From Escherichia phage vB_EcoS_XY2: a stretch of DNA of 44,138 nucleotides. The translations under genes were made by a program, and so were the position numbers. Numbering within the stretch: the first letter of the stretch is position 1; every line of letters begins with the position of its first letter. A model generated the notes under the pieces. It was not told where the DNA came from. It did no database searches and saw only the letters and a program-made list of their open reading frames with translations. This document shows, piece by piece, positions 1 to 44,138 of the stretch. Where the stretch lies: the sequence record MN927226.1. One strand, written 5' to 3'.

Positions 1-40
1 TCTGGCAGGCCCCACGCTTTTACCTCATATCTCTGTACCA

Positions 41-223
41 TTACTCCACCCCTTCCACATGTGTAACTGACCCACAGTTCGCGCACTCGACGTAATCAGG
101 GTACTGGTCTTTGTATTTCTGTAGCTCAGCTTCAAGTTTCGCGTAATCTTCGTAAAGCACTAACACGCCCTCAACATCAGGAGTAAACCCGAATATCTGG
201 TCGTAGGTATATCTCTGCACCAT
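41..223 (-). CDS. small early protein (60 aa), tandem paralog of CDS 43783..44052
   Basis: ORF MVQRY...CANCGSVTHVEGVE; AGGAGA RBS before ATG at 223; last 87 nt identical to 3' end of 43783..44052; stop overlaps next ATG (TAATG). Confidence 0.6.
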   Translation of the reverse strand: MVQRYTYDQIFGFTPDVEGVLVLYEDYAKLEAELQKYKDQYPDYVECANCGSVTHVEGVE

Positions 224-225
224 AA

Positions 226-429
226 TCACTTCTCCTGTTTACCAAGTCGCTTAGGTGAGCAGATAGCGCGTACCTCTGAATCGTTTGGCTTGTCGCCCTG
301 AAACAGGAAGTGCGCGTTCTCTGCGGCGCGTGCAGCTGACTGGCACGCCTCCATCGAGTAAAACGTTTCTGATGCCGCGAGTTGCATCTGGCCCGCGGAC
401 AGTACCCAGATAAATAAGATGCTGGTCAT
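226..429 (-). CDS. hypothetical protein (67 aa) with hydrophobic N-terminus
   Basis: ORF track; ATGA overlap with stop of 426..974. Confidence 0.5.
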   Translation of the reverse strand: MTSILFIWVLSAGQMQLAASETFYSMEACQSAARAAENAHFLFQGDKPNDSEVRAICSPKRLGKQEK

Positions 430-974
430 TTCAGTTTAGCCCCGCAATCAAGACACTTTTTAGTAAAACCCGGCGCAAAGCCTTTGCGCAAACCGACGGT
501 ATTAGCGTGTTGGCAATCGCTCAATTCCGATTCTTGCTTACCGCATTTAGCGCAAATGAAGTAGTCCCCTTTTTCATCTAGCACCCAATCATGCTCGCAT
601 TCCTGGGTATCCTCTTTACAGCAACCGGATTGCTCCTGTTTGCGGATAAGTTTGTACGCTTCCGCGTCACCCGTAGCCCGAACCAGCGCCAGATGCAAAT
701 CCTTAATCTGCGACGAAGCATCACGTAACTGGTTTTTAAGTGACTGCACCTCATGCGCCAGGTCTTCGCACTGCTGCTTGTGCGGGTTGTGCTGGTTGTG
801 CTCCAGGCCGATGTAAGCGTCGATTACGGCGTTTTCTTCATCGGTATAGTTACCGCGACCCGCGATACTACGGTCAATACTCCACCGTTTGATTTCACCC
901 ATTACATCCGCGACTGGTAGCTGCTGCCGTAGTTGGTCAATCAGGTACTCGAATACTTCGTTTTTGTTACTCAT
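426..974 (-). CDS. hypothetical Cys-rich early protein (182 aa)
   Basis: ORF track; GAGAGGAGAG RBS before ATG; C-terminal CxxC pairs (CAKCG, CLDCG). Confidence 0.7.
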   Translation of the reverse strand: MSNKNEVFEYLIDQLRQQLPVADVMGEIKRWSIDRSIAGRGNYTDEENAVIDAYIGLEHNQHNPHKQQCEDLAHEVQSLKNQLRDASSQIKDLHLALVRATGDAEAYKLIRKQEQSGCCKEDTQECEHDWVLDEKGDYFICAKCGKQESELSDCQHANTVGLRKGFAPGFTKKCLDCGAKLK

Positions 975-1005
975 ACTACGTCTCTCCTCTCGTTTGTGTA
1001 AATGA

Positions 1006-14945: not shown

Positions 14946-15079
14946 ACATCATAGCTCCTATTCCAGCATTGCAAAAACGTATCAAGGAACTGGAAGAAGA
15001 GGTTCTACGCCTACGGCAACAGAGAGATGCCGCTAATGCGCAACTGGCGTTTGTGCTGGAGAAGTTATCGGAAGAGTAG
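14942..15079 (+). CDS. small coiled-coil protein (45 aa)
   Basis: Hand-translated MNIIAPIPALQKRIKELEEEVLRLRQQRDAANAQLAFVLEKLSEE; ATGA overlap. Confidence 0.45.
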   Translation: MNIIAPIPALQKRIKELEEEVLRLRQQRDAANAQLAFVLEKLSEE

Positions 15080-15083
15080 AGAA

Positions 15084-15103
15084 AAGGCCCCAAACGGGGC
15101 CTT
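15084..15103. terminator. bidirectional terminator AAGGCCCC-aaac-GGGGCCTT
   Basis: Perfect 8-bp stem between converging plus module and tailspike gene. Confidence 0.7.
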
Positions 15104-15107
15104 AGTT

Positions 15108-17291
15108 TTAATCGCAAAGTAATGCTTTGGTGAAGTTTGGAACCCACGGCATCCTGTCAGAAATTACTAAATCTCTAATCAGAATCCCACAATCAGCAGA
15201 TGCGCCGCTGTACGTAACTTGAATGTTAAAACTTGTAGCCTGACTTCTTGCAAGGCTAATGGCTGCAAAATAATCAGTCCCTGTCTGTGGTGAGATAGTT
15301 ACATATGACGTTCCAAGCCCTATTTTCACAACAGTATTAGTTCCGTAGCTAGTGAACTGGTGGCGGAACAAAACATAAACTCTGTCGTGGTTATTAAAAA
15401 CAGCATTTGACGTAGTTATAGGGATTGTGAACGTTTTAACAGTCGCGTCTCGCTGGAAATTAACCTGCAAGTTATCCACAGAAGTTGTCATTACAATGCC
15501 AGACTGTTGCGGGTAGGCTGCGCCATTATTGGCATTAAGCGCAGACCTTTTAAAAAGAACAAATGGTTTTGAAGACATCTGTTCACTCTCCCAGGTACTT
15601 GTCCCGCTGTCGTCCCAAAAAAGACCTTTAAAATAGTACATTACACTGGCGGCCACAGTCCAACCGGCTAAATCAAACATGCTGCCGGTGGCATCTGTTA
15701 AGTCGCAGTTGATGAATCTATTAAATCTGTTAGTAGAGTTTTGGTATACACACCGTGGTGTAGTCGTTCCAGATGTGATATTAGGGTCTGCAAACGATAC
15801 CGAGTTGAATGTCACATACTCGCACCCATCCATGACAATACCGCCGCGAGTCACTGCGCCAGAACGTTGGATGTTAGTAAATGTACTGTTACGCATCTTT
15901 GTAAGAAGGGCGAACGTACAATCTGATGTCAGAGAACCATCGGCGTTATGCGCTTCTCCGTGGAAATCTGTGAAATGGATATCTCGGAAACCTTTTACAT
16001 CTGTCGCGGTATTCCCCGCGAGACTTTCTGAGTAGATAGCGTATGTCGCACGGCTCGCCCAACCCACTCGGTCAAAGGTGCACGCAAAAATCTGTCGGTC
16101 TGTGTGGCAGGAGAACCTAATACTAGGGTTGCCGGATGTTGCCCATGAAGGGTTGTCGTCGATTGTGCTAAAGAACATGCAATCCCGGAATGACAGACCC
16201 GTTAAATTGCCGCGGGCGATGTCTGTATTAGAACGGAGTACAACCCCACCGCCTAATGTCCATACGTGGCTTAATTCCAGGTTCTCTACGTCTCCAGATG
16301 TTGCGTTTTTAGGGTGGATAACAACACCGGCATCGAATGTTCCAGATACAGATACTCGACGGACGACGGCATTACGGCTTCCACCAATGTGCAGTCCAAC
16401 CACATTCGGTTGTGAACCATCTGCGTTTATCTGGAAACCTTCAATATAGAAAGGGTCTTGCCCTGAGTTATCAATAGCGACGATAGCTGGTCCTGTAGCG
16501 CCAGCAATTACGTTGGTGCCCGTGAAGCTAGGGAGCGCCATGAAATATGTTTCTGGATAGACCCCAACAATACGCGTCCTACGCGGTAGGTTAAGAGTAG
16601 AATCAAGCCAAAAGAATCCAGCCGGGAAACGTAAAGTAACCCCGGTACCAATATTAGCGCTCGTTGCTGCCGTCAAAGCCTGCTCGATGTATGTCCGTAC
16701 GCTTCCTAGAGCTTTTGATGCGCTAACATCGTTTAGCGCTGCGATAACGTTAGCCGGGAGGTAGTCGAGTATGTTTATCTCTGTTTTTTCTGCTTGAGTG
16801 CTAAGGTAATCAAACTCTTCCTGTACGGTCCTACCAGATGTTGTGCCAACTAACCCTGCACCAGTGCTTAGGGCCAAATCGCGGCGCAATGCAGCTTCGC
16901 TAACAACAACAACCCATGCGGTCTGACCCACTCCGCCCGTCGAGGCTGGCGTCGAAGATGCAGGTATAGTTTTTGGCAGAGCACCTTTCCACGCATAATA
17001 GTTGCCGTCGCCAGATGGCCCTGGCCACAACACCGCCAAGTCGGCGTCATTCGCGCCCAACGTCCCACCTGTTTCGAATGTGAAAGACGCAGGTCTGAAA
17101 CCGGCGTCACGCAACACGGCGGGGAGTGTCTTCTGCGTCTGCCCTGTAACCTGATTTGTTGCGTAATCAATATCAGCACCAGTAGCAACACCACCGGATT
17201 TACCAGTAATAACCTCAGCTTCGAAAATCTGGTGTTTCTTGGCGGTCTGTAAATCCGCCAGGCTTAAAACGTCACCGCATCCGCTTGACAT
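15108..17291 (-). CDS. tailspike / depolymerase-type receptor-binding protein
   Basis: 727-aa ORF last in tail module; WKGALPKTIPASSTPASTGGVGQTAW linker motif; repetitive beta-helix-like body. Confidence 0.75.
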   Translation of the reverse strand: MSSGCGDVLSLADLQTAKKHQIFEAEVITGKSGGVATGADIDYATNQVTGQTQKTLPAVLRDAGFRPASFTFETGGTLGANDADLAVLWPGPSGDGNYYAWKGALPKTIPASSTPASTGGVGQTAWVVVVSEAALRRDLALSTGAGLVGTTSGRTVQEEFDYLSTQAEKTEINILDYLPANVIAALNDVSASKALGSVRTYIEQALTAATSANIGTGVTLRFPAGFFWLDSTLNLPRRTRIVGVYPETYFMALPSFTGTNVIAGATGPAIVAIDNSGQDPFYIEGFQINADGSQPNVVGLHIGGSRNAVVRRVSVSGTFDAGVVIHPKNATSGDVENLELSHVWTLGGGVVLRSNTDIARGNLTGLSFRDCMFFSTIDDNPSWATSGNPSIRFSCHTDRQIFACTFDRVGWASRATYAIYSESLAGNTATDVKGFRDIHFTDFHGEAHNADGSLTSDCTFALLTKMRNSTFTNIQRSGAVTRGGIVMDGCEYVTFNSVSFADPNITSGTTTPRCVYQNSTNRFNRFINCDLTDATGSMFDLAGWTVAASVMYYFKGLFWDDSGTSTWESEQMSSKPFVLFKRSALNANNGAAYPQQSGIVMTTSVDNLQVNFQRDATVKTFTIPITTSNAVFNNHDRVYVLFRHQFTSYGTNTVVKIGLGTSYVTISPQTGTDYFAAISLARSQATSFNIQVTYSGASADCGILIRDLVISDRMPWVPNFTKALLCD

Positions 17292-34375: not shown

Positions 34376-34897
34376 ATGGTTACTACAGTAATTACTTTCC
34401 CTGCGTATGTAGGGGCGAAAATATGCAGGGCTAAAAATGATGTTCGCTACTATTTGAACGCTTTTTACATAGACCCTGAAGGATTGATAGTGTCTACGGA
34501 CGGTCATAGATTGTTCTGCGACAACGTGAAGACAAACGTCGAAACTGGAGTTCTAATAGACATCAAAGGGAGGGAGCCTTCTAAATTTAATTACGCGGAG
34601 GTAGACCACGACAACGGCAGTGTTTCTTTCTATGACGATAGTCGTGCGCTTATATGTACACTTCCGGTGTATGTTGTAGACGGAAAATTTCCTGACTGGC
34701 GACGCGTAGCGCGCATTACACCTGGTTCAGTTGATAGCATAGGGTTTACTCTGTGTTATTTGGCAGACGCGCACAAGATTTCTAAGGCATATAAAAATGA
34801 AATTGCTCGTTTCGATTTCCAGGACAAAACCAGAGGATGCAAAATATCATTTTCAAACACAGCATTTATGGTGTTAATGCCTGCGCGAGTTAAATAA
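34376..34897 (+). CDS. truncated beta sliding clamp (DnaN) homolog, domain II plus C-terminal part of domain III
   Basis: DVRYYLN, TDGHRLF, VDGKFPDWRRV, IGFTLCY and C-terminal FMVLMPARV match recalled E. coli DnaN segments; 173 aa vs 366. Confidence 0.75.
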   Translation: MVTTVITFPAYVGAKICRAKNDVRYYLNAFYIDPEGLIVSTDGHRLFCDNVKTNVETGVLIDIKGREPSKFNYAEVDHDNGSVSFYDDSRALICTLPVYVVDGKFPDWRRVARITPGSVDSIGFTLCYLADAHKISKAYKNEIARFDFQDKTRGCKISFSNTAFMVLMPARVK

Positions 34898-34901
34898 AAC
34901 T

Positions 34902-34921
34902 AAGGCCCCTTACGGGGCCTT
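34902..34921. terminator. bidirectional terminator AAGGCCCC-ttac-GGGGCCTT
   Basis: Perfect 8-bp stem right after stop of 34376..34897. Confidence 0.7.
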
Positions 34922-34924
34922 TTA

Positions 34925-35386
34925 TCATTCTGGCTTAGTGACCTTCGCCGCTTTACTTACCGCCTCTACCCCATCGGCATCGGTAACTTTAACGAAGTAT
35001 TCACCGACTGCGTTAACCGTCAGAGACAAAGCCTCTTCAGGTGCGTTTACAACTTCCTTACCGTCTTTGTACCATGTCAGCGCATATGGTGCTTTGCCCG
35101 CCTTAACTTCAACAGCGATAGTTGCACTGCCGTCTGTCAGTTCAGTGTCCTGCGGTTGCACAGAGAAATACACGTCGCCAGCGTCCGCCAGATACGGAAT
35201 CTCATAAAGCATACCCGCCGCTGGCAGCGCAATACCGGTCTTGTCTGCAAACGGCATATCATCCACTGGTGTACCGAGTACACTTTCATCCTCAATAAAT
35301 ACCACGTTCTCGCCAGAGCCAGACACGCGGGCGTACTGGACAACACGGCGCGACGGTACATCAGTTACTTTGAAAAAGCCCATCAT
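34925..35386 (-). CDS. Ig-like domain protein (153 aa)
   Basis: ALTWYKDGKEV...GEYFVKVTDADG Ig-like pattern; TAATG coupling. Confidence 0.55.
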   Translation of the reverse strand: MMGFFKVTDVPSRRVVQYARVSGSGENVVFIEDESVLGTPVDDMPFADKTGIALPAAGMLYEIPYLADAGDVYFSVQPQDTELTDGSATIAVEVKAGKAPYALTWYKDGKEVVNAPEEALSLTVNAVGEYFVKVTDADGVEAVSKAAKVTKPE

Positions 35387-36498: not shown

Positions 36499-37980
36499 TT
36501 ACTGCTGAGTGGTGTCCTGTTGCTGCGCCGACTGCGGAATCTCTCCCGCTACCTGAGCAACAGAACCCAACGGCAGAGGTGCGTCTTCAATAGCGTTCTG
36601 AATGTCCTCATCTGTCCAGTCAGTCACACCTGCCTTGCGCAACGCAGCATAGTAAGCGGTGGCGGGTAGCAGGCCAGCGTTAATATCCGCCATCCACTGA
36701 GCGCGGTCCTGAGCTGTCATAGGTTGCAGGAAGAATTCCATATTCAGCTTGAACTCAATCTCAGTATCTTCACTAAGCCCAAGCATACCCGCAACCCAGC
36801 GCAACGCATCGGTATACGCCATGCTTACATTACGTGCTATTGTTGCCATGACTGACGTGTCGGCGCCGCGTTGCAGGCGGGCCGATTCCGCGGTGATTTG
36901 CTGCGTCGGGGTGATAAGCTGCGCGCCAATCTGGATGGCCTGATTCTCTTTATCCAGCATATTCTGTTTGGCGAGGTTAGTTTCCGCCGCCTGAACCAGA
37001 AACGCATTTCCGCCGGAGCCGATGTTGTGGCCTGAACGCGACCCCATGCGTATGCCGTGTGGGTTGGCTTCTTTCCACTGCTCCATGCTCATGTTCTCGC
37101 CGGGGGCAATGAACAGTGTCGGTTGACCTACTATAAAGCTGGCCTCTTCCACATCGGCCGAATTTCTGAAGTGTCCTATATTTAGCTCAGCTAACGGCAG
37201 TAAAGGCGCATCGTCTATAGTGGCGTCGTTGTTGCTTGCGCCAATGAACGTGAACGGGATTTTACCGCGCAACTGTTCGCCGAGTTCCGGGAAGATTTCG
37301 ATTACTTCATCCTGTGCGCCACCTTCGGCATCGAAGCGGTAGATGCGCTGGCGGTAGCGACCGTCAATCAGGTCAAGGACGCGGTATTGCTCGCCGAATT
37401 TTGTTTCAAACTCAGCGCCTGGTTCCGAGTATTCCCATGCCTCACGCAATACAACCATCGTCACGCGGTTCACTGAACCGATGCGGGTGAGTCTCCAGTT
37501 GATAATGTTCTCCGCGGTATAGAATGCGATTACCGGGTTTAATAATCCCGCGTTCTGCTCTGCCGCCGTTGCTGCGGCTGTTTCCGGGGCGTCCACCAGC
37601 AACCCGCCACGGCCTATCGAGTTAATCTCCATCAGCGTATCCTGCGCGTGCTGCCACAGCCCGACACCTGAACCGTCAGCGTTGTGCAACAGGTACTCAA
37701 GTTCAGGCGGGATAATCTGCTCAGGGTCTTTGCGCATCACTGACCCAGTCATCCCCGCCAGCGTGCGTTTGGTGAAATTGTAGCAGATAGCGCCGTTCTC
37801 GTATTCTTCCTGTCGCTGTGCTGCGTAGGTCTGGTCAGGCTCGTTCTTCCCGACGTTGCGCAGATAGCGGATAAGGTCGCCTTCAAGAGCGTGGCGTACC
37901 TTCTGCCATTTATCGAAGTGATGCAGCCATTCCCGGTGTTTTGTCTTAACACCCTGATTCTGACCGTTCATAGTTAACAT
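36499..37980 (-). CDS. portal protein
   Basis: 493-aa ORF immediately after terminase large subunit; AAGAGGA RBS. Confidence 0.8.
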   Translation of the reverse strand: MLTMNGQNQGVKTKHREWLHHFDKWQKVRHALEGDLIRYLRNVGKNEPDQTYAAQRQEEYENGAICYNFTKRTLAGMTGSVMRKDPEQIIPPELEYLLHNADGSGVGLWQHAQDTLMEINSIGRGGLLVDAPETAAATAAEQNAGLLNPVIAFYTAENIINWRLTRIGSVNRVTMVVLREAWEYSEPGAEFETKFGEQYRVLDLIDGRYRQRIYRFDAEGGAQDEVIEIFPELGEQLRGKIPFTFIGASNNDATIDDAPLLPLAELNIGHFRNSADVEEASFIVGQPTLFIAPGENMSMEQWKEANPHGIRMGSRSGHNIGSGGNAFLVQAAETNLAKQNMLDKENQAIQIGAQLITPTQQITAESARLQRGADTSVMATIARNVSMAYTDALRWVAGMLGLSEDTEIEFKLNMEFFLQPMTAQDRAQWMADINAGLLPATAYYAALRKAGVTDWTDEDIQNAIEDAPLPLGSVAQVAGEIPQSAQQQDTTQQ

Positions 37981-37992
37981 TGAATAATCCTC

Positions 37993-39264
37993 TTAAAGTG
38001 CGAAAGTCACCGGGACGTTAATAACTGGTTTGCGAATCGGCATTTCATACGCGATAGGGTATGTGGTTCCATCATTCTGGTGGTCCACACCGCCTGATTT
38101 ATCCGGTTCGCCGTTCTTGTCGTAAGCCTGTTGCTCCAGACATCGTGCGGTAACCGGGCAAGCCTGCTCATTAATCATGACCATACCAGATTCAAGCGCC
38201 TTATTCATCGCCGCTACGCGGTCTTTAACCGGTGGGTTTGTCGATTTAGCGCGCACTTCGAAGCCGGCCTGCTGTAACTGGGCAATATCAGATGTGCTGG
38301 CGTTGTTACTTTTACGGTTTTTACCGCTTGCGTCGGGGTACATAACGATATAGTGGCCCTTACTTTTCCAGCGCTCTGTTACGGCTCTCACCACATCGGG
38401 CGTATCGAACATATCCACCAACTCGGCGACTGCATGCCAGACTTTGCCACGTTGCACGTAAACTGTACTAGCCATGTGGCCTACGTTAAAGTCCTGCCCG
38501 ATATACAGAGTCTCGCCTGGTTTTATTGTTTCGCGGCTGCTGTTTTTCCTGCGGTCATAGGCGTAATAGACAGTCCCCGCCGTCAGGTTGACGAACTCGC
38601 CGTTGATGTAGGCGTCAATCAACTGACCCGGGTATGTGTCGCGTAACGACTGCACATAATCTTCTGGCAGGAACGGGTTAGACAGGGTGGACGCCTGAAT
38701 CATCTCGTAGCCTGGATTCTTTTTGACTACCCAGCGGTCATGTACGAAACGGAATCCTTCCGGGGTAGTGAACACGGAAACGGTATTAGCAGGTTTCGGT
38801 GTAATAGGTTTATATGTCCGCGGCAACTGGCGGTTACGGGCGATGACTTTGTTCCACGCGTGCTCGGCGTGCTCCATGTTAAGGGTGTCCAACTCGTCGA
38901 TTTTCGCACGAAACGATTCGTAGCCAACGATTCGTGCTGGATTATCAAGTGTACGCAGAACAAAATCCCCAAATTGTCCGGAAGACGTATAGATTATGTT
39001 GTCAGACTTGTTGTATTTGTACCGGATACCCCAGTCGGTGAGCTTTTCTTCCATACGCGGTGCAAGGATGAGGCGCACCAGGTCATAAGTCGGCTCATAC
39101 ATGGCGATGATAGAATCGCTACCACCTTCCATGCTGTCGAGTAGTGCAGAGTTGCACATAACTTCGGATTTACCCGTACCGAAGCCAGCTACGAATGCCG
39201 GAAACTTGCAATGCATACCGAGAAACGCGCCTTGCGGCTCCGTTGCCGTGATATTAACGTTCAC
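37993..39264 (-). CDS. terL: terminase large subunit
   Basis: Walker A GFGTGKSE near N-terminus; between small terminase and portal; start codon uncertain. Confidence 0.85.
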   Translation of the reverse strand: MNVNITATEPQGAFLGMHCKFPAFVAGFGTGKSEVMCNSALLDSMEGGSDSIIAMYEPTYDLVRLILAPRMEEKLTDWGIRYKYNKSDNIIYTSSGQFGDFVLRTLDNPARIVGYESFRAKIDELDTLNMEHAEHAWNKVIARNRQLPRTYKPITPKPANTVSVFTTPEGFRFVHDRWVVKKNPGYEMIQASTLSNPFLPEDYVQSLRDTYPGQLIDAYINGEFVNLTAGTVYYAYDRRKNSSRETIKPGETLYIGQDFNVGHMASTVYVQRGKVWHAVAELVDMFDTPDVVRAVTERWKSKGHYIVMYPDASGKNRKSNNASTSDIAQLQQAGFEVRAKSTNPPVKDRVAAMNKALESGMVMINEQACPVTARCLEQQAYDKNGEPDKSGGVDHQNDGTTYPIAYEMPIRKPVINVPVTFAL

Positions 39265-39763
39265 CGGACACCACCTTAATTGTTACTTCGCTGATTGGCT
39301 CGTCGCGTACTTCTTCGGCGACAACTGTTTTATTCAACCCCAGTTTCGCAGCAGCAAACGTAGCAGAGATACCTGCGGCCCCTGTCTCGGTGAAGTACGC
39401 CTCTTCCAGCGCCTGCGCCGTTTCATAGGCTTCTGCAAATGCGGGAATCTCACGCAGCCAAAGCTTAATAATCGGGATAGTGACTCCGATGTGTAAGGCG
39501 AAGCGGGCCAGTGACGGTGGTTTATCCTGAATCAGCGGGCGTTCGTCACCCTTAGACGTTGGCACAAGCTCCCACGACGTGCGGTCGAAGAACTCGATTA
39601 ACGCGTCACAGTAGTCCGGGTCCCACAATGCCGCAGAATTACGGGATGATTGATAAAGGCTCTGTTTACCGCGCGGTCGTTTACGGCGACGGTTTGCGCT
39701 AACAGCTTCTTCATGTGCAGCTTGCACCACCTCTGGTGATGGCTGCTTAAGTTTCAGCTTCAT
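39254..39763 (-). CDS. terS: terminase small subunit (putative)
   Basis: Basic N-terminus; position immediately upstream of terL; ATG 39763 with AAGGGG RBS. Confidence 0.55.
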   Translation of the reverse strand: MKLKLKQPSPEVVQAAHEEAVSANRRRKRPRGKQSLYQSSRNSAALWDPDYCDALIEFFDRTSWELVPTSKGDERPLIQDKPPSLARFALHIGVTIPIIKLWLREIPAFAEAYETAQALEEAYFTETGAAGISATFAAAKLGLNKTVVAEEVRDEPISEVTIKVVSGER

Positions 39764-39828
39764 AGAATCCCCTTGCATATGCGTCTGACCATCAGAGCGC
39801 ACCAGACGCGCCCTACGCGTCTAAATGG

Positions 39829-39858
39829 ATTATATAAGGGGATTGGGCGGGATGTACA
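39829..39858 (-). promoter_or_regulatory. candidate late promoter TGTACA-N18-TATAAT upstream of terminase
   Basis: Hexamers read on minus strand between terminator 39863-39880 and terS. Confidence 0.3.
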
Positions 39859-39862
39859 GAAA

Positions 39863-39880
39863 AGCCCTCCGTAGAGGGCT
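39863..39880 (-). terminator. hairpin AGCCCTC-cgta-GAGGGCT then TTT on minus strand
   Basis: Follows stop of small gene 39891..40046. Confidence 0.5.
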
Positions 39881-39890
39881 TGTGGGTTGG

Positions 39891-40046
39891 TTATTCTGTT
39901 ATATCGCCGCCGTCTACCAGTGCGATTGGTATTCTCACTTCACCGTTGAATGTTTCGGCATACCAGAACTTTTCACACTGCGTTACGCTGAAAACATCGA
40001 GTTCTGACGTAGCCCCTGTTTTCCAGTAGATAGTTAACTTTTTCAT
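39891..40046 (-). CDS. small hypothetical protein (51 aa)
   Basis: Hand-translated MKKLTIYWKTGATSELDVFSVTQCEKFWYAETFNGEVRIPIALVDGGDITE; strong RBS AAGAGGAGAGTGGAGA. Confidence 0.45.
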   Translation of the reverse strand: MKKLTIYWKTGATSELDVFSVTQCEKFWYAETFNGEVRIPIALVDGGDITE

Positions 40047-42692: not shown

Positions 42693-42993
42693 GTGGTCCT
42701 CCTGGGCGGGCAATATCGCCGCCCGATACGATACCGGACAGACGGGAATAGATAGGCATCCAGAGAATAGCGATAATGAAGCCCAGGCCTGCGATTTCAC
42801 GGTCGCCCGTGATTCCAAACCATTGAGCTGCGAGAGGTGCGCCAAATACGGCGCAAGTGAAGCCAGTTGCAATAAAGCAGAAGCCGTCGATAGGGCCGGA
42901 AATAGCGGACTTATGTTGCCTTAGTCCGATTACCCCTCCGGCTAGTGCGGCAGCGAGAAGCCACCCCGTCACAGTTTCAGTAAATTTATCCAA
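42685..42993 (-). CDS. holin (three predicted TM helices)
   Basis: Three hydrophobic segments in 102 aa upstream of endolysin; TTG start after GGAGGA. Confidence 0.6.
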   Translation of the reverse strand: MDKFTETVTGWLLAAALAGGVIGLRQHKSAISGPIDGFCFIATGFTCAVFGAPLAAQWFGITGDREIAGLGFIIAILWMPIYSRLSGIVSGGDIARPGGPHD

Positions 42994-43052
42994 GATGAAT
43001 CCTCCAGGTGCGTATTAAGTATGCAGTAACTGGAGGATACCACGGGTAGGAA

Positions 43053-43493
43053 TTATCCTAATAGTTGTTTGGTAATAATCTTGCCGCCGGTGTCAGGGTC
43101 GAACTTCGATGCAACTGCTACACCACCTTGCGCCGAATACCCACATTCCATAGCCGCTAGGGCATAAGGGGCGCCTGAACCAACGGCGGAAAAGCTGTCC
43201 GCAATCTGAATAACCAAACTAAGAGCACAATCCCAAGATTTATAGAACTCCACCCTACACAACGTTTCGATGTCTTTAACCCACACCAAGGCAGAGAAAT
43301 CAAAATCGTAGTGCTTAGGCACTAAAATACTATCGTCCTCCACTAAAAGGATACCAACCCCTGCATCGCCAGCCGCCCCAATAACAACAAATTCGTTCTC
43401 GTATATCTTTGTGTCTGTGTTGTAACTGTTACTCCCGCACACAACACGGGTATCACAGGCCATTGTCTTTCCGTCAAACGCGATAGTAGTCAT
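43053..43493 (-). CDS. HslV/proteasome-beta-like Ntn-hydrolase peptidase homolog (146 aa)
   Basis: N-terminal Met-Thr-Thr; AVGSGAPYALAA matches recalled HslV AIGSGGPYAQAA; ATGA coupling. Confidence 0.65.
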   Translation of the reverse strand: MTTIAFDGKTMACDTRVVCGSNSYNTDTKIYENEFVVIGAAGDAGVGILLVEDDSILVPKHYDFDFSALVWVKDIETLCRVEFYKSWDCALSLVIQIADSFSAVGSGAPYALAAMECGYSAQGGVAVASKFDPDTGGKIITKQLLG

Positions 43494-43783
43494 TTATGTC
43501 TCCAGATGTATTGTCGTCTCTGTGGTTTCGTCGGAATATCATCGTACCCCAGCGATTTCCAGTAATTAAATAGCCGGTTCGCGATAGCTGCGCGTTCCTT
43601 TGTTTTAAACTCACCGAGATTCACTGCCTTTCCGTTCTGGAATCCACAGGCGCGGATAGCTTTACGCCGTTCTTGTATCTCTGGGTACAGCACGTTACGG
43701 CGACGCTTGTGTATACGTGTCTTCGCTCTCGGTGACAGCGGCGCAAGGCCGCTTCGTTTCAGGATGTCAGTTGCTAACGACAT
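43490..43783 (-). CDS. basic hypothetical protein (97 aa)
   Basis: ATG 43783 overlaps stop of upstream paralog (TAATG). Confidence 0.55.
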   Translation of the reverse strand: MSLATDILKRSGLAPLSPRAKTRIHKRRRNVLYPEIQERRKAIRACGFQNGKAVNLGEFKTKERAAIANRLFNYWKSLGYDDIPTKPQRRQYIWRHK

Positions 43784-43869
43784 TACTCCACCCCTTCCAC
43801 ATGTGTAACTGACCCACAGTTCGCGCACTCGACGTAATCAGGGTACTGGTCTTTGTATTTCTGTAGCTC
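43781..43869. repeat. 89-bp direct repeat, copy 2 (copy 1 at 39..127)
   Basis: Exact 89-nt identity read directly; covers 3' end of a paralog plus start codon of next gene. Confidence 0.9.
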
Positions 43870-44052
43870 GGCGTTTACTTCTGCCAGTCTCGACACAAGC
43901 CCTTCTATTTCCTTGTCGGCGTCGGCTAGACGTTCCTGGTAATAGTCGTCCAGTTCCTTATAGCTGTCGTACTCTACATAATCGCCGTATGCGTACTCAG
44001 CCATCTCAGGCTCTGGCAGGCCCCACGCTTTTACCTCATATCTCTGTACCAT
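43783..44052 (-). CDS. small early protein (89 aa), tandem paralog of CDS 41..223
   Basis: MVQRYEVKAWGL...CANCGSVTHVEGVE; shares N-terminal MVQRY and identical C-terminal 29 aa with the 41..223 product. Confidence 0.6.
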   Translation of the reverse strand: MVQRYEVKAWGLPEPEMAEYAYGDYVEYDSYKELDDYYQERLADADKEIEGLVSRLAEVNAELQKYKDQYPDYVECANCGSVTHVEGVE

Positions 44053-44138
44053 TACTCCACCCCTTCCACATGTGTAACTGACCCACAGTTCGCGCACTCG
44101 ACGTAATCAGGGTACTGGTCTTTGTATTTCTGTAGCTC
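44012..44138. repeat. 127-bp terminal redundancy identical to positions 1..127
   Basis: Exact identity of window ends; runs through coding sequence. Confidence 0.95.

What the first reader, a model, noticed from the sequence alone, without database searches (positions are those of the whole stretch)
1..127. Exact 127-bp redundancy of the window ends indicates a circular or circularly permuted complete genome
Positions 1-127 equal 44012-44138, giving a unique length of 44011 bp. The redundancy runs through coding sequence and ends exactly at the boundary of the 89-bp internal repeat. 127 is a common maximal k-mer length in de Bruijn assemblers, so this looks like an assembly overlap of a circular contig rather than a biological terminal repeat; biological direct terminal repeats are normally non-coding. 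Features at the start of the window duplicate those at the end.
Basis: partly seen in the sequence, partly recalled or inferred. Interest (0 to 1): 0.35.

Follow-up and report, generated by a model that had tools for sequence, protein, structure and literature searches.

The report
Assembler end overlap on phage genome
The identical 127 bases at both ends of this sequence are most likely a by-product of the assembly software closing a circle, which tells us the 44,011-base genome of an ordinary E. coli phage (genus Kagunavirus) is complete but says nothing about its real DNA ends.

Summary
Observation confirmed. Window 1-127 equals 44012-44138 exactly, and 127 is the longest prefix that equals a suffix, so the unique length is 44,011 bp. 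The overlap is entirely coding. Its right edge coincides with the right edge of an exact 89-bp internal repeat.

The window is a lytic E. coli siphophage of genus Kagunavirus (Guernseyvirinae), about 92-95% identical to BASEL phages Bas70-76. It is collinear around the whole circle with the complete Bas72 record. The end-to-start join lies inside Bas72, Bas71 and five independent metagenome contigs.

TerL and TerS are 89% and 93% identical to those of Salmonella phage Kenya-K47. For K47, PhageTerm, restriction mapping and PFGE indicate pac/headful packaging.

[quoted passage not shown] A toy k=127 de Bruijn graph shows that window 1-127 is the single node that branches if a few reads join repeat copy B to the sequence after copy A. 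That would account for the coincidence with the repeat edge.

Verdict: this is an assembly overlap of a circular map of a headful-packaged, circularly permuted genome, not a biological terminal repeat. The finding is ordinary and of low interest. Reads were not available, so the assembler setting and read coverage remain untested.

The parts
1..127 (.). Left copy of the 127-bp end overlap (38 nt unique sequence plus the 89-bp repeat copy B)
   Evidence: identical to 44012-44138; this 127-mer is unique on the circle, and it is the only out-branching node if repeat copy B is joined to the sequence downstream of copy A.
44012..44138 (.). Right copy of the 127-bp end overlap
   Evidence: One copy should be removed, giving a 44,011-bp circular map.
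43781..43869 (.). 89-bp exact internal repeat, copy A (3' end of gene X1 plus the start codon of gene Y)
44050..44138 (.). 89-bp exact internal repeat, copy B (3' end of gene X2 plus the start codon of X1). It is the same sequence as 39-127, and its right edge is the contig end.
   Evidence: In five other contigs with the same gene arrangement the two copies differ at 7-9 of 89 positions.
43783..44052 (-). Gene X1 (89 aa, function unknown). Its first 41 nt fall in the overlap.
   Evidence: translation; exactly this protein is encoded on 23 contigs read from public assemblies; the C-terminus matches phrog_29624.
41..223 (-). Gene X2 (60 aa, phrog_29624, function unknown). Its last 87 nt fall in the overlap.
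   Evidence: E 8.7e-45, full-length match starting at the ATG
43490..43783 (-). Gene Y (97 aa, phrog_9632), immediately downstream of X1. It is conserved in relatives and anchors the synteny across the join.
39254..39802 (-). Small terminase subunit. Records of relatives are opened here by convention, and this is the expected neighbourhood of the pac site.
   Evidence: phrog_3064, E 7e-76; 93% identical to Kenya-K47 gp1. BASEL records start at window 39802.
37993..39264 (-). Large terminase subunit (Terminase_6N/6C)
   Evidence: 99% identity to Bas71/XY1, about 89% to Jerseyviruses; 89% identity to Kenya-K47, with no gaps.
36499..37980 (-). Portal protein
   Evidence: phrog_145, E 6e-147

Best explanation
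The 127-bp terminal redundancy is most likely the k-mer overlap that a de Bruijn graph assembler leaves when it writes a closed loop as a linear contig.

- Assembler (inferred): k = 127, most likely SPAdes or metaSPAdes; MEGAHIT with k-max 127 is also possible.
- Genome (shown): the underlying object is the complete 44,011-bp genome of a lytic E. coli siphophage of genus Kagunavirus.
- Biology (inferred from close orthologs, not measured here): virions carry linear DNA cut from concatemers by a pac/headful terminase. The molecules are therefore circularly permuted and terminally redundant by far more than 127 bp. Reads from such a population have no fixed ends and assemble into a circle.
- Position of the cut (inferred): the contig was opened at the node made of 38 unique bases plus the whole 89-bp repeat. 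That node becomes a branch point if a minority of reads join repeat copy B to the sequence after copy A. Such reads could come from recombinants, a tandem duplication of the 269-bp unit, or library chimeras. Once the weak branch is removed, the loop stays anchored at that node.
For: 1. Exact 127-nt identity, the longest prefix equal to a suffix.
2. [quoted passage not shown] Phage U136B had 127-bp repeats on its SPAdes contig and they were removed (PMC8104045). Phage AXL1 had a 127-bp duplication at its SPAdes contig ends; its contig ends were checked by PCR and Sanger sequencing, and exploring the duplication as a DTR gave no confirmation (PMC9206674).
3. The join is internal in independent genomes. 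Bas72 aligns window 43966 to 44138 to 128 to 773 in one HSP. Logan contigs L010 (98.5% identity), L011, L016, L013 and L008 span it. In the GenBank records found, the region lies at interior positions.
4. The window is collinear with the whole Bas72 circle. Bas72's record ends map to window 39802/40043, and the window's ends map to about Bas72 40096.
5. The overlap is fully coding, within conserved genes. No promoter-like or terminator-like site was found in the overlap or within several hundred bases of it.
6. TerL is 89% and TerS 93% identical to Kenya-K47. For K47, PhageTerm gave P1-like headful packaging, the EcoRV map looked circular and the PFGE band was broad (PMC10783031). Other Guernseyvirinae-like phages: Shashou (pac site) and Sciku (headful) by PhageTerm, and fBC-Eco01 with no termini found.
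7. Toy de Bruijn graph. At k=127 all 44,011 k-mers are unique, so the genome is a plain cycle. The duplication-type junction makes window 1-127 the only out-branching node. The loop written from that node reproduces the 44,138-nt window exactly.
Against: - No reads, coverage profile or assembler log are available, so k = 127 is inferred from the length alone.
- The source contig could not be found in any collection.
- One paper on a relative with 84% TerL identity, phiEap-2, states that restriction fragments fit a linear rather than a circular map (PMC4913238). However, its record start maps roughly 2 kb from this window's join, not at it.
- Direct pairwise comparison of TerL with model-phage terminases (T1, P22, SPP1, Sf6, lambda, HK97, T7) was uninformative. 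The headful assignment therefore rests on the close ortholog K47 and on published analyses.
- The minority-junction explanation for where the contig was opened is a model, not an observation.
Confidence: 0.9

Rival explanations
1. The overlap is an assembler artefact and the map is circular, but the contig was cut at this node because the copy number of the 269-bp unit (X1 body plus repeat) is truly unresolved. Either the phage carries two or more tandem X1 units, giving a true length of 44,011 + n x 269 bp, or the population is heterogeneous for it.
For:: a tandem duplication gives exactly the observed branch geometry, with an out-branch at window 1-127 and an in-branch at 43781; the two repeat copies are identical only in this genome, whereas five other contigs show 7-9 differences. 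That indicates recent recombination or gene conversion at this locus. A random opening point would hit one of the four informative nodes with probability of about 4/44,011.
Against: No public relative or contig examined carries more than one X1 unit. Paired reads normally let an assembler resolve a 269-bp tandem repeat. A few chimeric reads would produce the same branch.
Confidence: 0.08
2. The 127 bp are a genuine short direct terminal repeat of the virion DNA, as in T7- or SP6-like phages, and the window is the true linear genome.
For: Short exact DTRs of 100-300 bp exist in other phage groups; 165-289 bp were reported for K1E/K1F-like podophages (PMC5582158). One relative, phiEap-2, was reported as linear by restriction mapping.
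Against: - The repeat lies wholly inside two protein-coding genes and would cut gene X1.
- Its length equals a standard assembler k.
- The same sequence is internal and single-copy in relatives, and no relative's record starts here.
- TerL and TerS are close orthologs of those of a headful phage.
- There is no detectable similarity to T7 gp19.
- The start of the phiEap-2 record does not map to this position.
Confidence: 0.015
3. The circle is a false closure. The contig is an incomplete linear piece whose two ends happen to lie in copies of a repeated element, so part of the genome is missing.
For: The overlap contains an 89-bp sequence that does occur twice in the genome.
Against: The overlap also contains 38 nt that occur nowhere else, and every 127-mer of the circle is unique. 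The window covers the whole circle of Bas72 in order, and its two ends meet at one point of Bas72 with nothing in between. The 44,011-bp length lies within the 41-46 kb range of the genus.
Confidence: 0.01
4. The molecule is physically circular in the sample, for example a replicative or plasmid-like form, rather than a permuted linear virion genome.
For: A circular template also assembles into a loop with a k-mer overlap. If the sample was a cellular metagenome, replicating intracellular forms would contribute.
Against: The genome encodes a complete terminase, portal, head and tail set and no integrase or partition genes among the annotated relatives. Relatives are virulent siphophages with linear packaged DNA.
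Confidence: 0.02

Closest known systems
SPAdes/metaSPAdes k=127 end overlap of circular contigs (documented assembly artefact)
   Same: The direct repeat at both contig ends is exact and exactly 127 bp long. It falls at an arbitrary, coding position. Removing one copy gives a circular map. The same has been described for phage assemblies (PMC5923482, PMC8104045, PMC9206674).
   Different: The assembler used for this window is unknown. In addition, the opening point here is not arbitrary: it sits at the exit of an 89-bp internal repeat, which suggests a graph branch at that node.
Salmonella phage Kenya-K47 and other Jerseyviruses (Guernseyvirinae), with pac/headful packaging
   Same: TerL is 89% and TerS 93% identical. 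Genome size (about 43 kb), G+C content (about 50%) and gene order are the same. These genomes also assemble without fixed ends.
   Different: The genus differs (Kagunavirus, with an E. coli host), as do the tailspike and many early genes. Packaging was not measured for this genome.
Escherichia phages Bas70-76 (BASEL collection), 590B, NTEC3, XY1 (genus Kagunavirus)
   Same: Nucleotide identity is 92-96% over 72-92% of each half of the window. They are fully collinear circular maps. TerL is 99% identical to Bas71 and XY1.
   Different: About 12% of the sequence is replaced relative to Bas72 (early genes, part of the tailspike). This genome has the X2-X1 tandem with identical 89-bp ends. By coverage times identity it falls below the 95% species threshold against every record found.
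Short exact direct terminal repeats of T7/SP6-like podophages
   Same: A direct repeat of roughly 100-300 bp at both ends of a genome of about 40-45 kb.
   Different: From general knowledge of T7-like phages, those repeats are non-coding, conserved in position among relatives, and made by a terminase of a different clade. None of this holds here.

Membership tests
De Bruijn assembler k-mer overlap of a circular contig | Prefix and suffix are identical without any mismatch | tested here: met
   127/127 identical, with no longer match.
De Bruijn assembler k-mer overlap of a circular contig | Overlap length equals the final k of the assembler | tested here: inconclusive
   127 is the largest k of SPAdes, and 127-bp overlaps are documented. 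The assembler and k used for this contig are unknown, and the source contig was not found.
De Bruijn assembler k-mer overlap of a circular contig | The end-to-start join is genuine contiguous sequence | tested here: met
   Bas72, Bas71 and Logan contigs L008, L010, L011, L013 and L016 span the join internally.
De Bruijn assembler k-mer overlap of a circular contig | Read coverage over the overlap equals that of the rest of the genome, with no read-start pile-ups | not testable with these tools
   No reads are available.
Headful (pac) packaged, circularly permuted, terminally redundant phage genome | Terminase orthologous to one with experimentally supported headful packaging | tested here: met
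   TerL is 89% and TerS 93% identical to Kenya-K47. K47 evidence: PhageTerm headful, circular-like EcoRV map, broad PFGE band (PMC10783031).
Headful (pac) packaged, circularly permuted, terminally redundant phage genome | No conserved physical ends: the genome assembles as a circle and relatives are opened at different, conventional points | tested here: met
   Relatives' records are flagged circular and start at terS, at TerL or elsewhere. The window's ends fall inside them.
Headful (pac) packaged, circularly permuted, terminally redundant phage genome | Virion DNA longer than unit length, a submolar pac fragment, and a gradient of read starts downstream of pac | not testable with these tools
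   This needs reads or virion DNA. One dissenting report exists for phiEap-2, whose restriction map was read as linear (PMC4913238).
Short exact DTR genomes (T7/SP6-like) | The repeat is non-coding and marks the same ends in relatives | tested here: not met
   The repeat is entirely inside genes X1 and X2. It is internal and single-copy in all relatives examined.
Short exact DTR genomes (T7/SP6-like) | Terminase of the T7-like clade | tested here: not met
   No detectable similarity to T7 gp19. The closest relatives are Guernseyvirinae and Dhillonvirus terminases.
Genus Kagunavirus (Guernseyvirinae) | High nucleotide identity and collinearity with recognised members over most of the genome | tested here: met
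   Identity is 88-96% over 72-92% of each half of the window with Bas70-76, XY1, SZH-1 and fEg-Eco19, which include records classified as Kagunavirus. 88% of the window aligns to Bas72.

The most novel reading that the evidence does not exclude
The contig was opened exactly at the exit of the 89-bp repeat because the phage population really is heterogeneous at this locus. In this reading, the two identical 89-bp gene ends act as a recombination site that generates duplication and deletion variants of the 269-bp X1 cassette. The identity of the two copies, against 7-9 differences in five other genomes, would be the trace of recent gene conversion. The terminal overlap itself would still be an artefact.
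Probability: 0.2. Interest if true: 0.2.

Novelty: not a real feature. Interest (0 to 1): 0.07.

Why it matters
The practical value is in curation.

- One copy of the 127 bp should be trimmed, giving a genome length of 44,011 bp.
- Features at the window start duplicate those at its end and must not be counted twice. Gene X1 is split at the left end and intact at the right end.
- The contig can be treated as a complete genome. By convention it would be reopened upstream of the small terminase gene, near window 39802.
- The overlap should not be reported as a direct terminal repeat or used to infer the packaging mode.

Biologically, nothing new follows beyond one more complete Kagunavirus genome.

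Tried and rejected
1. Finding the source contig, to read the assembler from its name. All attempts were negative:
   - an exact 51-mer scan of IMG/VR found only a different 40,896-bp contig;
   - a 60-mer scan of JGI metagenomes;
   - a 60-mer scan of GTDB genomes;
   - exact-protein look-ups with the tailspike, the DNA polymerase and a 466-aa tail protein.
2. Classifying TerL directly against solved structures (no significant hit) and against TerL of T1, P22, SPP1, Sf6, lambda, HK97 and T7. All comparisons were non-significant; the best were SPP1 and Sf6 at E of about 0.05-0.2. The packaging assignment therefore rests on the 89%-identical K47 ortholog and on published analyses.
3. Genuine DTR: rejected. 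The repeat is coding, it is internal in relatives, and the terminase is of the wrong type.
4. False closure through the 89-bp repeat: rejected. The overlap contains 38 unique bases, all 127-mers of the circle are unique, and the whole circle is collinear with Bas72.
5. Whether the reported linear ends of phiEap-2 coincide with the window ends: they do not. They map roughly 2 kb away, and that record also has an inverted helicase-primase gene.
6. A first motif search with the wrong spacer (AATAG-N5-CTATT) found nothing. The N4 spacing was the correct one.

Full report
**1. Observation**

The window is 44,138 nt long. Its first 127 nt are identical to its last 127 nt. This is the longest prefix that equals a suffix; the only other one is a trivial 2-mer. 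The unique length is therefore 44,011 bp.

An exact 89-bp direct repeat lies at 43781-43869 (copy A) and at 44050-44138 (copy B, the same sequence as 39-127). The copies are 269 bp apart. The repeat does not extend on either side, and the next base is G at 43870 versus A at 128. The right edge of the overlap is therefore exactly the right edge of repeat copy B. Its left edge lies 38 nt upstream of the repeat, in unique sequence.

All 127 bases are coding on the minus strand:
- Positions 1-41 are the start of gene X1 (43783-44052, 89 aa).
- Positions 41-127 are the end of its paralog X2 (41-223, 60 aa, full-length match to phrog_29624).
- The two genes are joined by an overlapping TAATG.

**2. 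What the window is**

Megablast of both halves against 50,697 phage records gives 72-92% coverage per half of the window at 92-96% identity. The hits are E. coli siphophages of genus Kagunavirus, subfamily Guernseyvirinae: BASEL Bas70-76, 590B, NTEC3, KMB35, XY1.

An alignment to the whole Bas72 record (43,746 bp, flagged circular) is collinear around the entire circle:
- Window 34896-39802 matches Bas72 4908-1.
- Window 40043-43063 matches Bas72 43566-40546.
- Both window 43966-44138 and window 1-773 land on Bas72 40142-39304.

Bas72's record ends fall inside the window, at the start of the small terminase gene. The window's ends fall inside Bas72. Nothing is missing between the window's two ends. 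At 44,011 bp the genome lies within the 41-46 kb range of the genus.

**3. The join is real sequence**

A synthetic junction (window 42801-44138 followed by 128-1500) matches interior positions of many GenBank records. Bas72 and Bas71 align across the join in one piece, and the full 127-mer is 95-96% identical there.

Gene X1 as an exact protein is on record in 24 blocks of public assemblies, of which 23 contigs were read. Five of these (L008, L010, L011, L013, L016) carry the same X2-X1 tandem and span the join internally. L010 is 98.5% identical over 1,648 nt. The closure is therefore not an artefact of the internal repeat. In addition, all 44,011 127-mers of the circle are unique.

**4. Why 127 bp, and why at this position**

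From general knowledge, 127 is the largest k that SPAdes accepts. It is part of the SPAdes k series for 250-nt reads and of the JGI metaSPAdes k series. It is also the k-max of MEGAHIT's meta-large preset.

The literature held here states the artefact explicitly:
- 127-bp repeats on the SPAdes contig of phage U136B, which were removed (PMC8104045).
- A 127-bp duplication at the SPAdes contig ends of phage AXL1. The contig ends were checked by PCR and Sanger sequencing, and exploring the duplication as a direct terminal repeat gave no confirmation (PMC9206674).

The coincidence with the repeat edge needs an explanation. A randomly opened loop would hit one of the four informative nodes with probability of about 4/44,011. 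A toy node-centric de Bruijn graph at k=127 shows three things:
- The genome alone forms an unbranched cycle.
- Adding a junction that joins the sequence upstream of copy B, the repeat, and the sequence downstream of copy A creates exactly one out-branching genome node. That node is window 1-127. It also creates one in-branching node, starting at 43781.
- Writing the loop from that node and closing it reproduces the 44,138-nt window string exactly.

The opposite (deletion-type) junction would instead mark nodes at 43743 and 39.

My inference is that a minority of reads carried the duplication-type junction. They could come from recombinants, a tandem duplication of the 269-bp unit, or library chimeras. 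After the weak branch was removed, the loop stayed anchored at that node. This step is a model and has not been observed.

**5. How the real DNA ends are most likely made**

The packaging genes are:
- terS, 39254-39802 (phrog_3064);
- TerL, 37993-39264 (Terminase_6N/6C);
- portal, 36499-37980.

TerL is 99% identical to that of Bas71 and XY1 and about 89% identical to Salmonella Jerseyviruses. It is only 54% identical to the K1G-type Kagunavirus TerL.

Against Salmonella phage Kenya-K47, TerL is 89% identical without gaps and TerS is 93% identical. For K47, PhageTerm called P1-like headful packaging, the EcoRV pattern resembled the circular map, and undigested DNA gave a broad PFGE band. The authors concluded headful packaging with pac initiation (PMC10783031).

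Other Guernseyvirinae-like phages agree:
- PhageTerm predicted a pac site for Shashou and headful packaging for Sciku.
- PhageTerm found no termini in fBC-Eco01.
- K1G and K1H terminases grouped with headful types.

The most likely biology is therefore concatemer cutting by a pac/headful terminase. This gives circularly permuted linear molecules with a terminal redundancy far larger than 127 bp. That is inferred from orthology, not measured here.

My own pairwise comparison of TerL with T1, P22, SPP1, Sf6, lambda, HK97 and T7 terminases, and with solved structures, was uninformative.

One dissenting report exists. For phiEap-2 (TerL 84% identical), the authors read their restriction fragments as fitting a linear map (PMC4913238). 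Its record start maps roughly 2 kb from this window's join, not at it. It therefore gives no support for ends at these coordinates.

**6. Rivals**

- Genuine short DTR. This is contradicted by the coding content, by the internal single-copy status of the sequence in relatives, by the terminase type, and by the exact match of the length to an assembler k.
- False closure. This is contradicted by the 38 unique bases in the overlap and by the whole-circle collinearity.
- Physically circular episome. This is unlikely for a virulent siphophage with a full terminase, portal, head and tail set.
- Unresolved or heterogeneous copy number of the 269-bp X1 unit. This is the only rival with appreciable weight. 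It predicts the same graph geometry, and it would change the length by multiples of 269 bp without changing the conclusion about the overlap.

**7. Comparison with known kinds, and novelty**

The feature behaves like, and meets the testable criteria of, the documented k=127 end overlap of circular contigs. The genome is a member of a well-described genus with a known packaging style. The terminal repeat is not a biological feature.

The genome itself is one more Kagunavirus. It is probably below the 95% species threshold relative to every record found. That estimate is a rough one from coverage times identity, not a formal calculation.

**8. Verdict**

The finding is ordinary. Its practical consequences are to trim one copy, treat the genome as a complete 44,011-bp circular map, and not annotate a DTR. 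Interest is low. The untested items are reads, coverage and assembler settings, and they are listed as decisive next steps.

Noticed in passing
window 43781-43869 and 44050-44138 (= 39-127); loci L008, L010, L011, L013, L016: The two 89-bp gene ends of the tandem paralogs X1 and X2 are identical in this genome. In five independent contigs with the same arrangement they differ at 7-9 of 89 positions. The window's version is 1 nt from copy A of L015. Copy B therefore looks recently overwritten by gene conversion that was confined to the homologous 89 bp.
   Followed up: partly
window 1005, 2460, 6058, 6102, 8391, 12490, 25350, 34336 (and weaker sites): The palindrome AATAG-N4-CTATT occurs 13 times (at most 1 mismatch) against 1.3 expected. 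Most copies sit between the hexamers of strong sigma-70-like promoters (TTGACA-N17-TATAGT) in intergenic regions. It looks like an operator for a phage regulator.
   Followed up: partly
window 37993-39802 (TerL, TerS): The packaging module is of the Jerseyvirus type: 89-93% identical to Salmonella phages and 99% to Bas71/XY1. Other Kagunaviruses (K1G, Snoke, EC3-1) carry a TerL that is only 54% identical. This indicates a module exchange within the genus.
   Followed up: partly
window 128-980 versus L001/L007/L014 (IMGVR_UViG_3300015188_000003, 40,896 bp): A contig that is 99.4% identical up to the X1 start codon lacks X2, the 67-aa gene and the 182-aa gene (window about 128-980). It resumes at about window 981. 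This early-gene region is a hotspot of cassette gain and loss. Some relatives carry an HNH_3 endonuclease gene here.
   Followed up: no
window 15079-15110 and 34895-34926: Two related G+C-rich hairpins (an 88% complementary pair) lie at points where transcription units converge. They are likely bidirectional terminators (pair I3).
   Followed up: no
L027 (phiEap-2, KT287080.2) 37244-39897: In the phiEap-2 record the helicase-primase gene is inverted relative to the DNA polymerase and helicase genes, when compared with this window. The inversion lies next to the record's ends. It may be a rearrangement or an assembly or orientation problem in that record. It bears on that paper's 'linear, not circular' claim.
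   Followed up: no
whole window: The closest records cover 72-92% of each half of the window at 92-96% identity (88% of the window aligns to Bas72). The genome would therefore probably count as a new species of Kagunavirus under the 95% rule. No formal intergenomic distance was computed.
   Followed up: no
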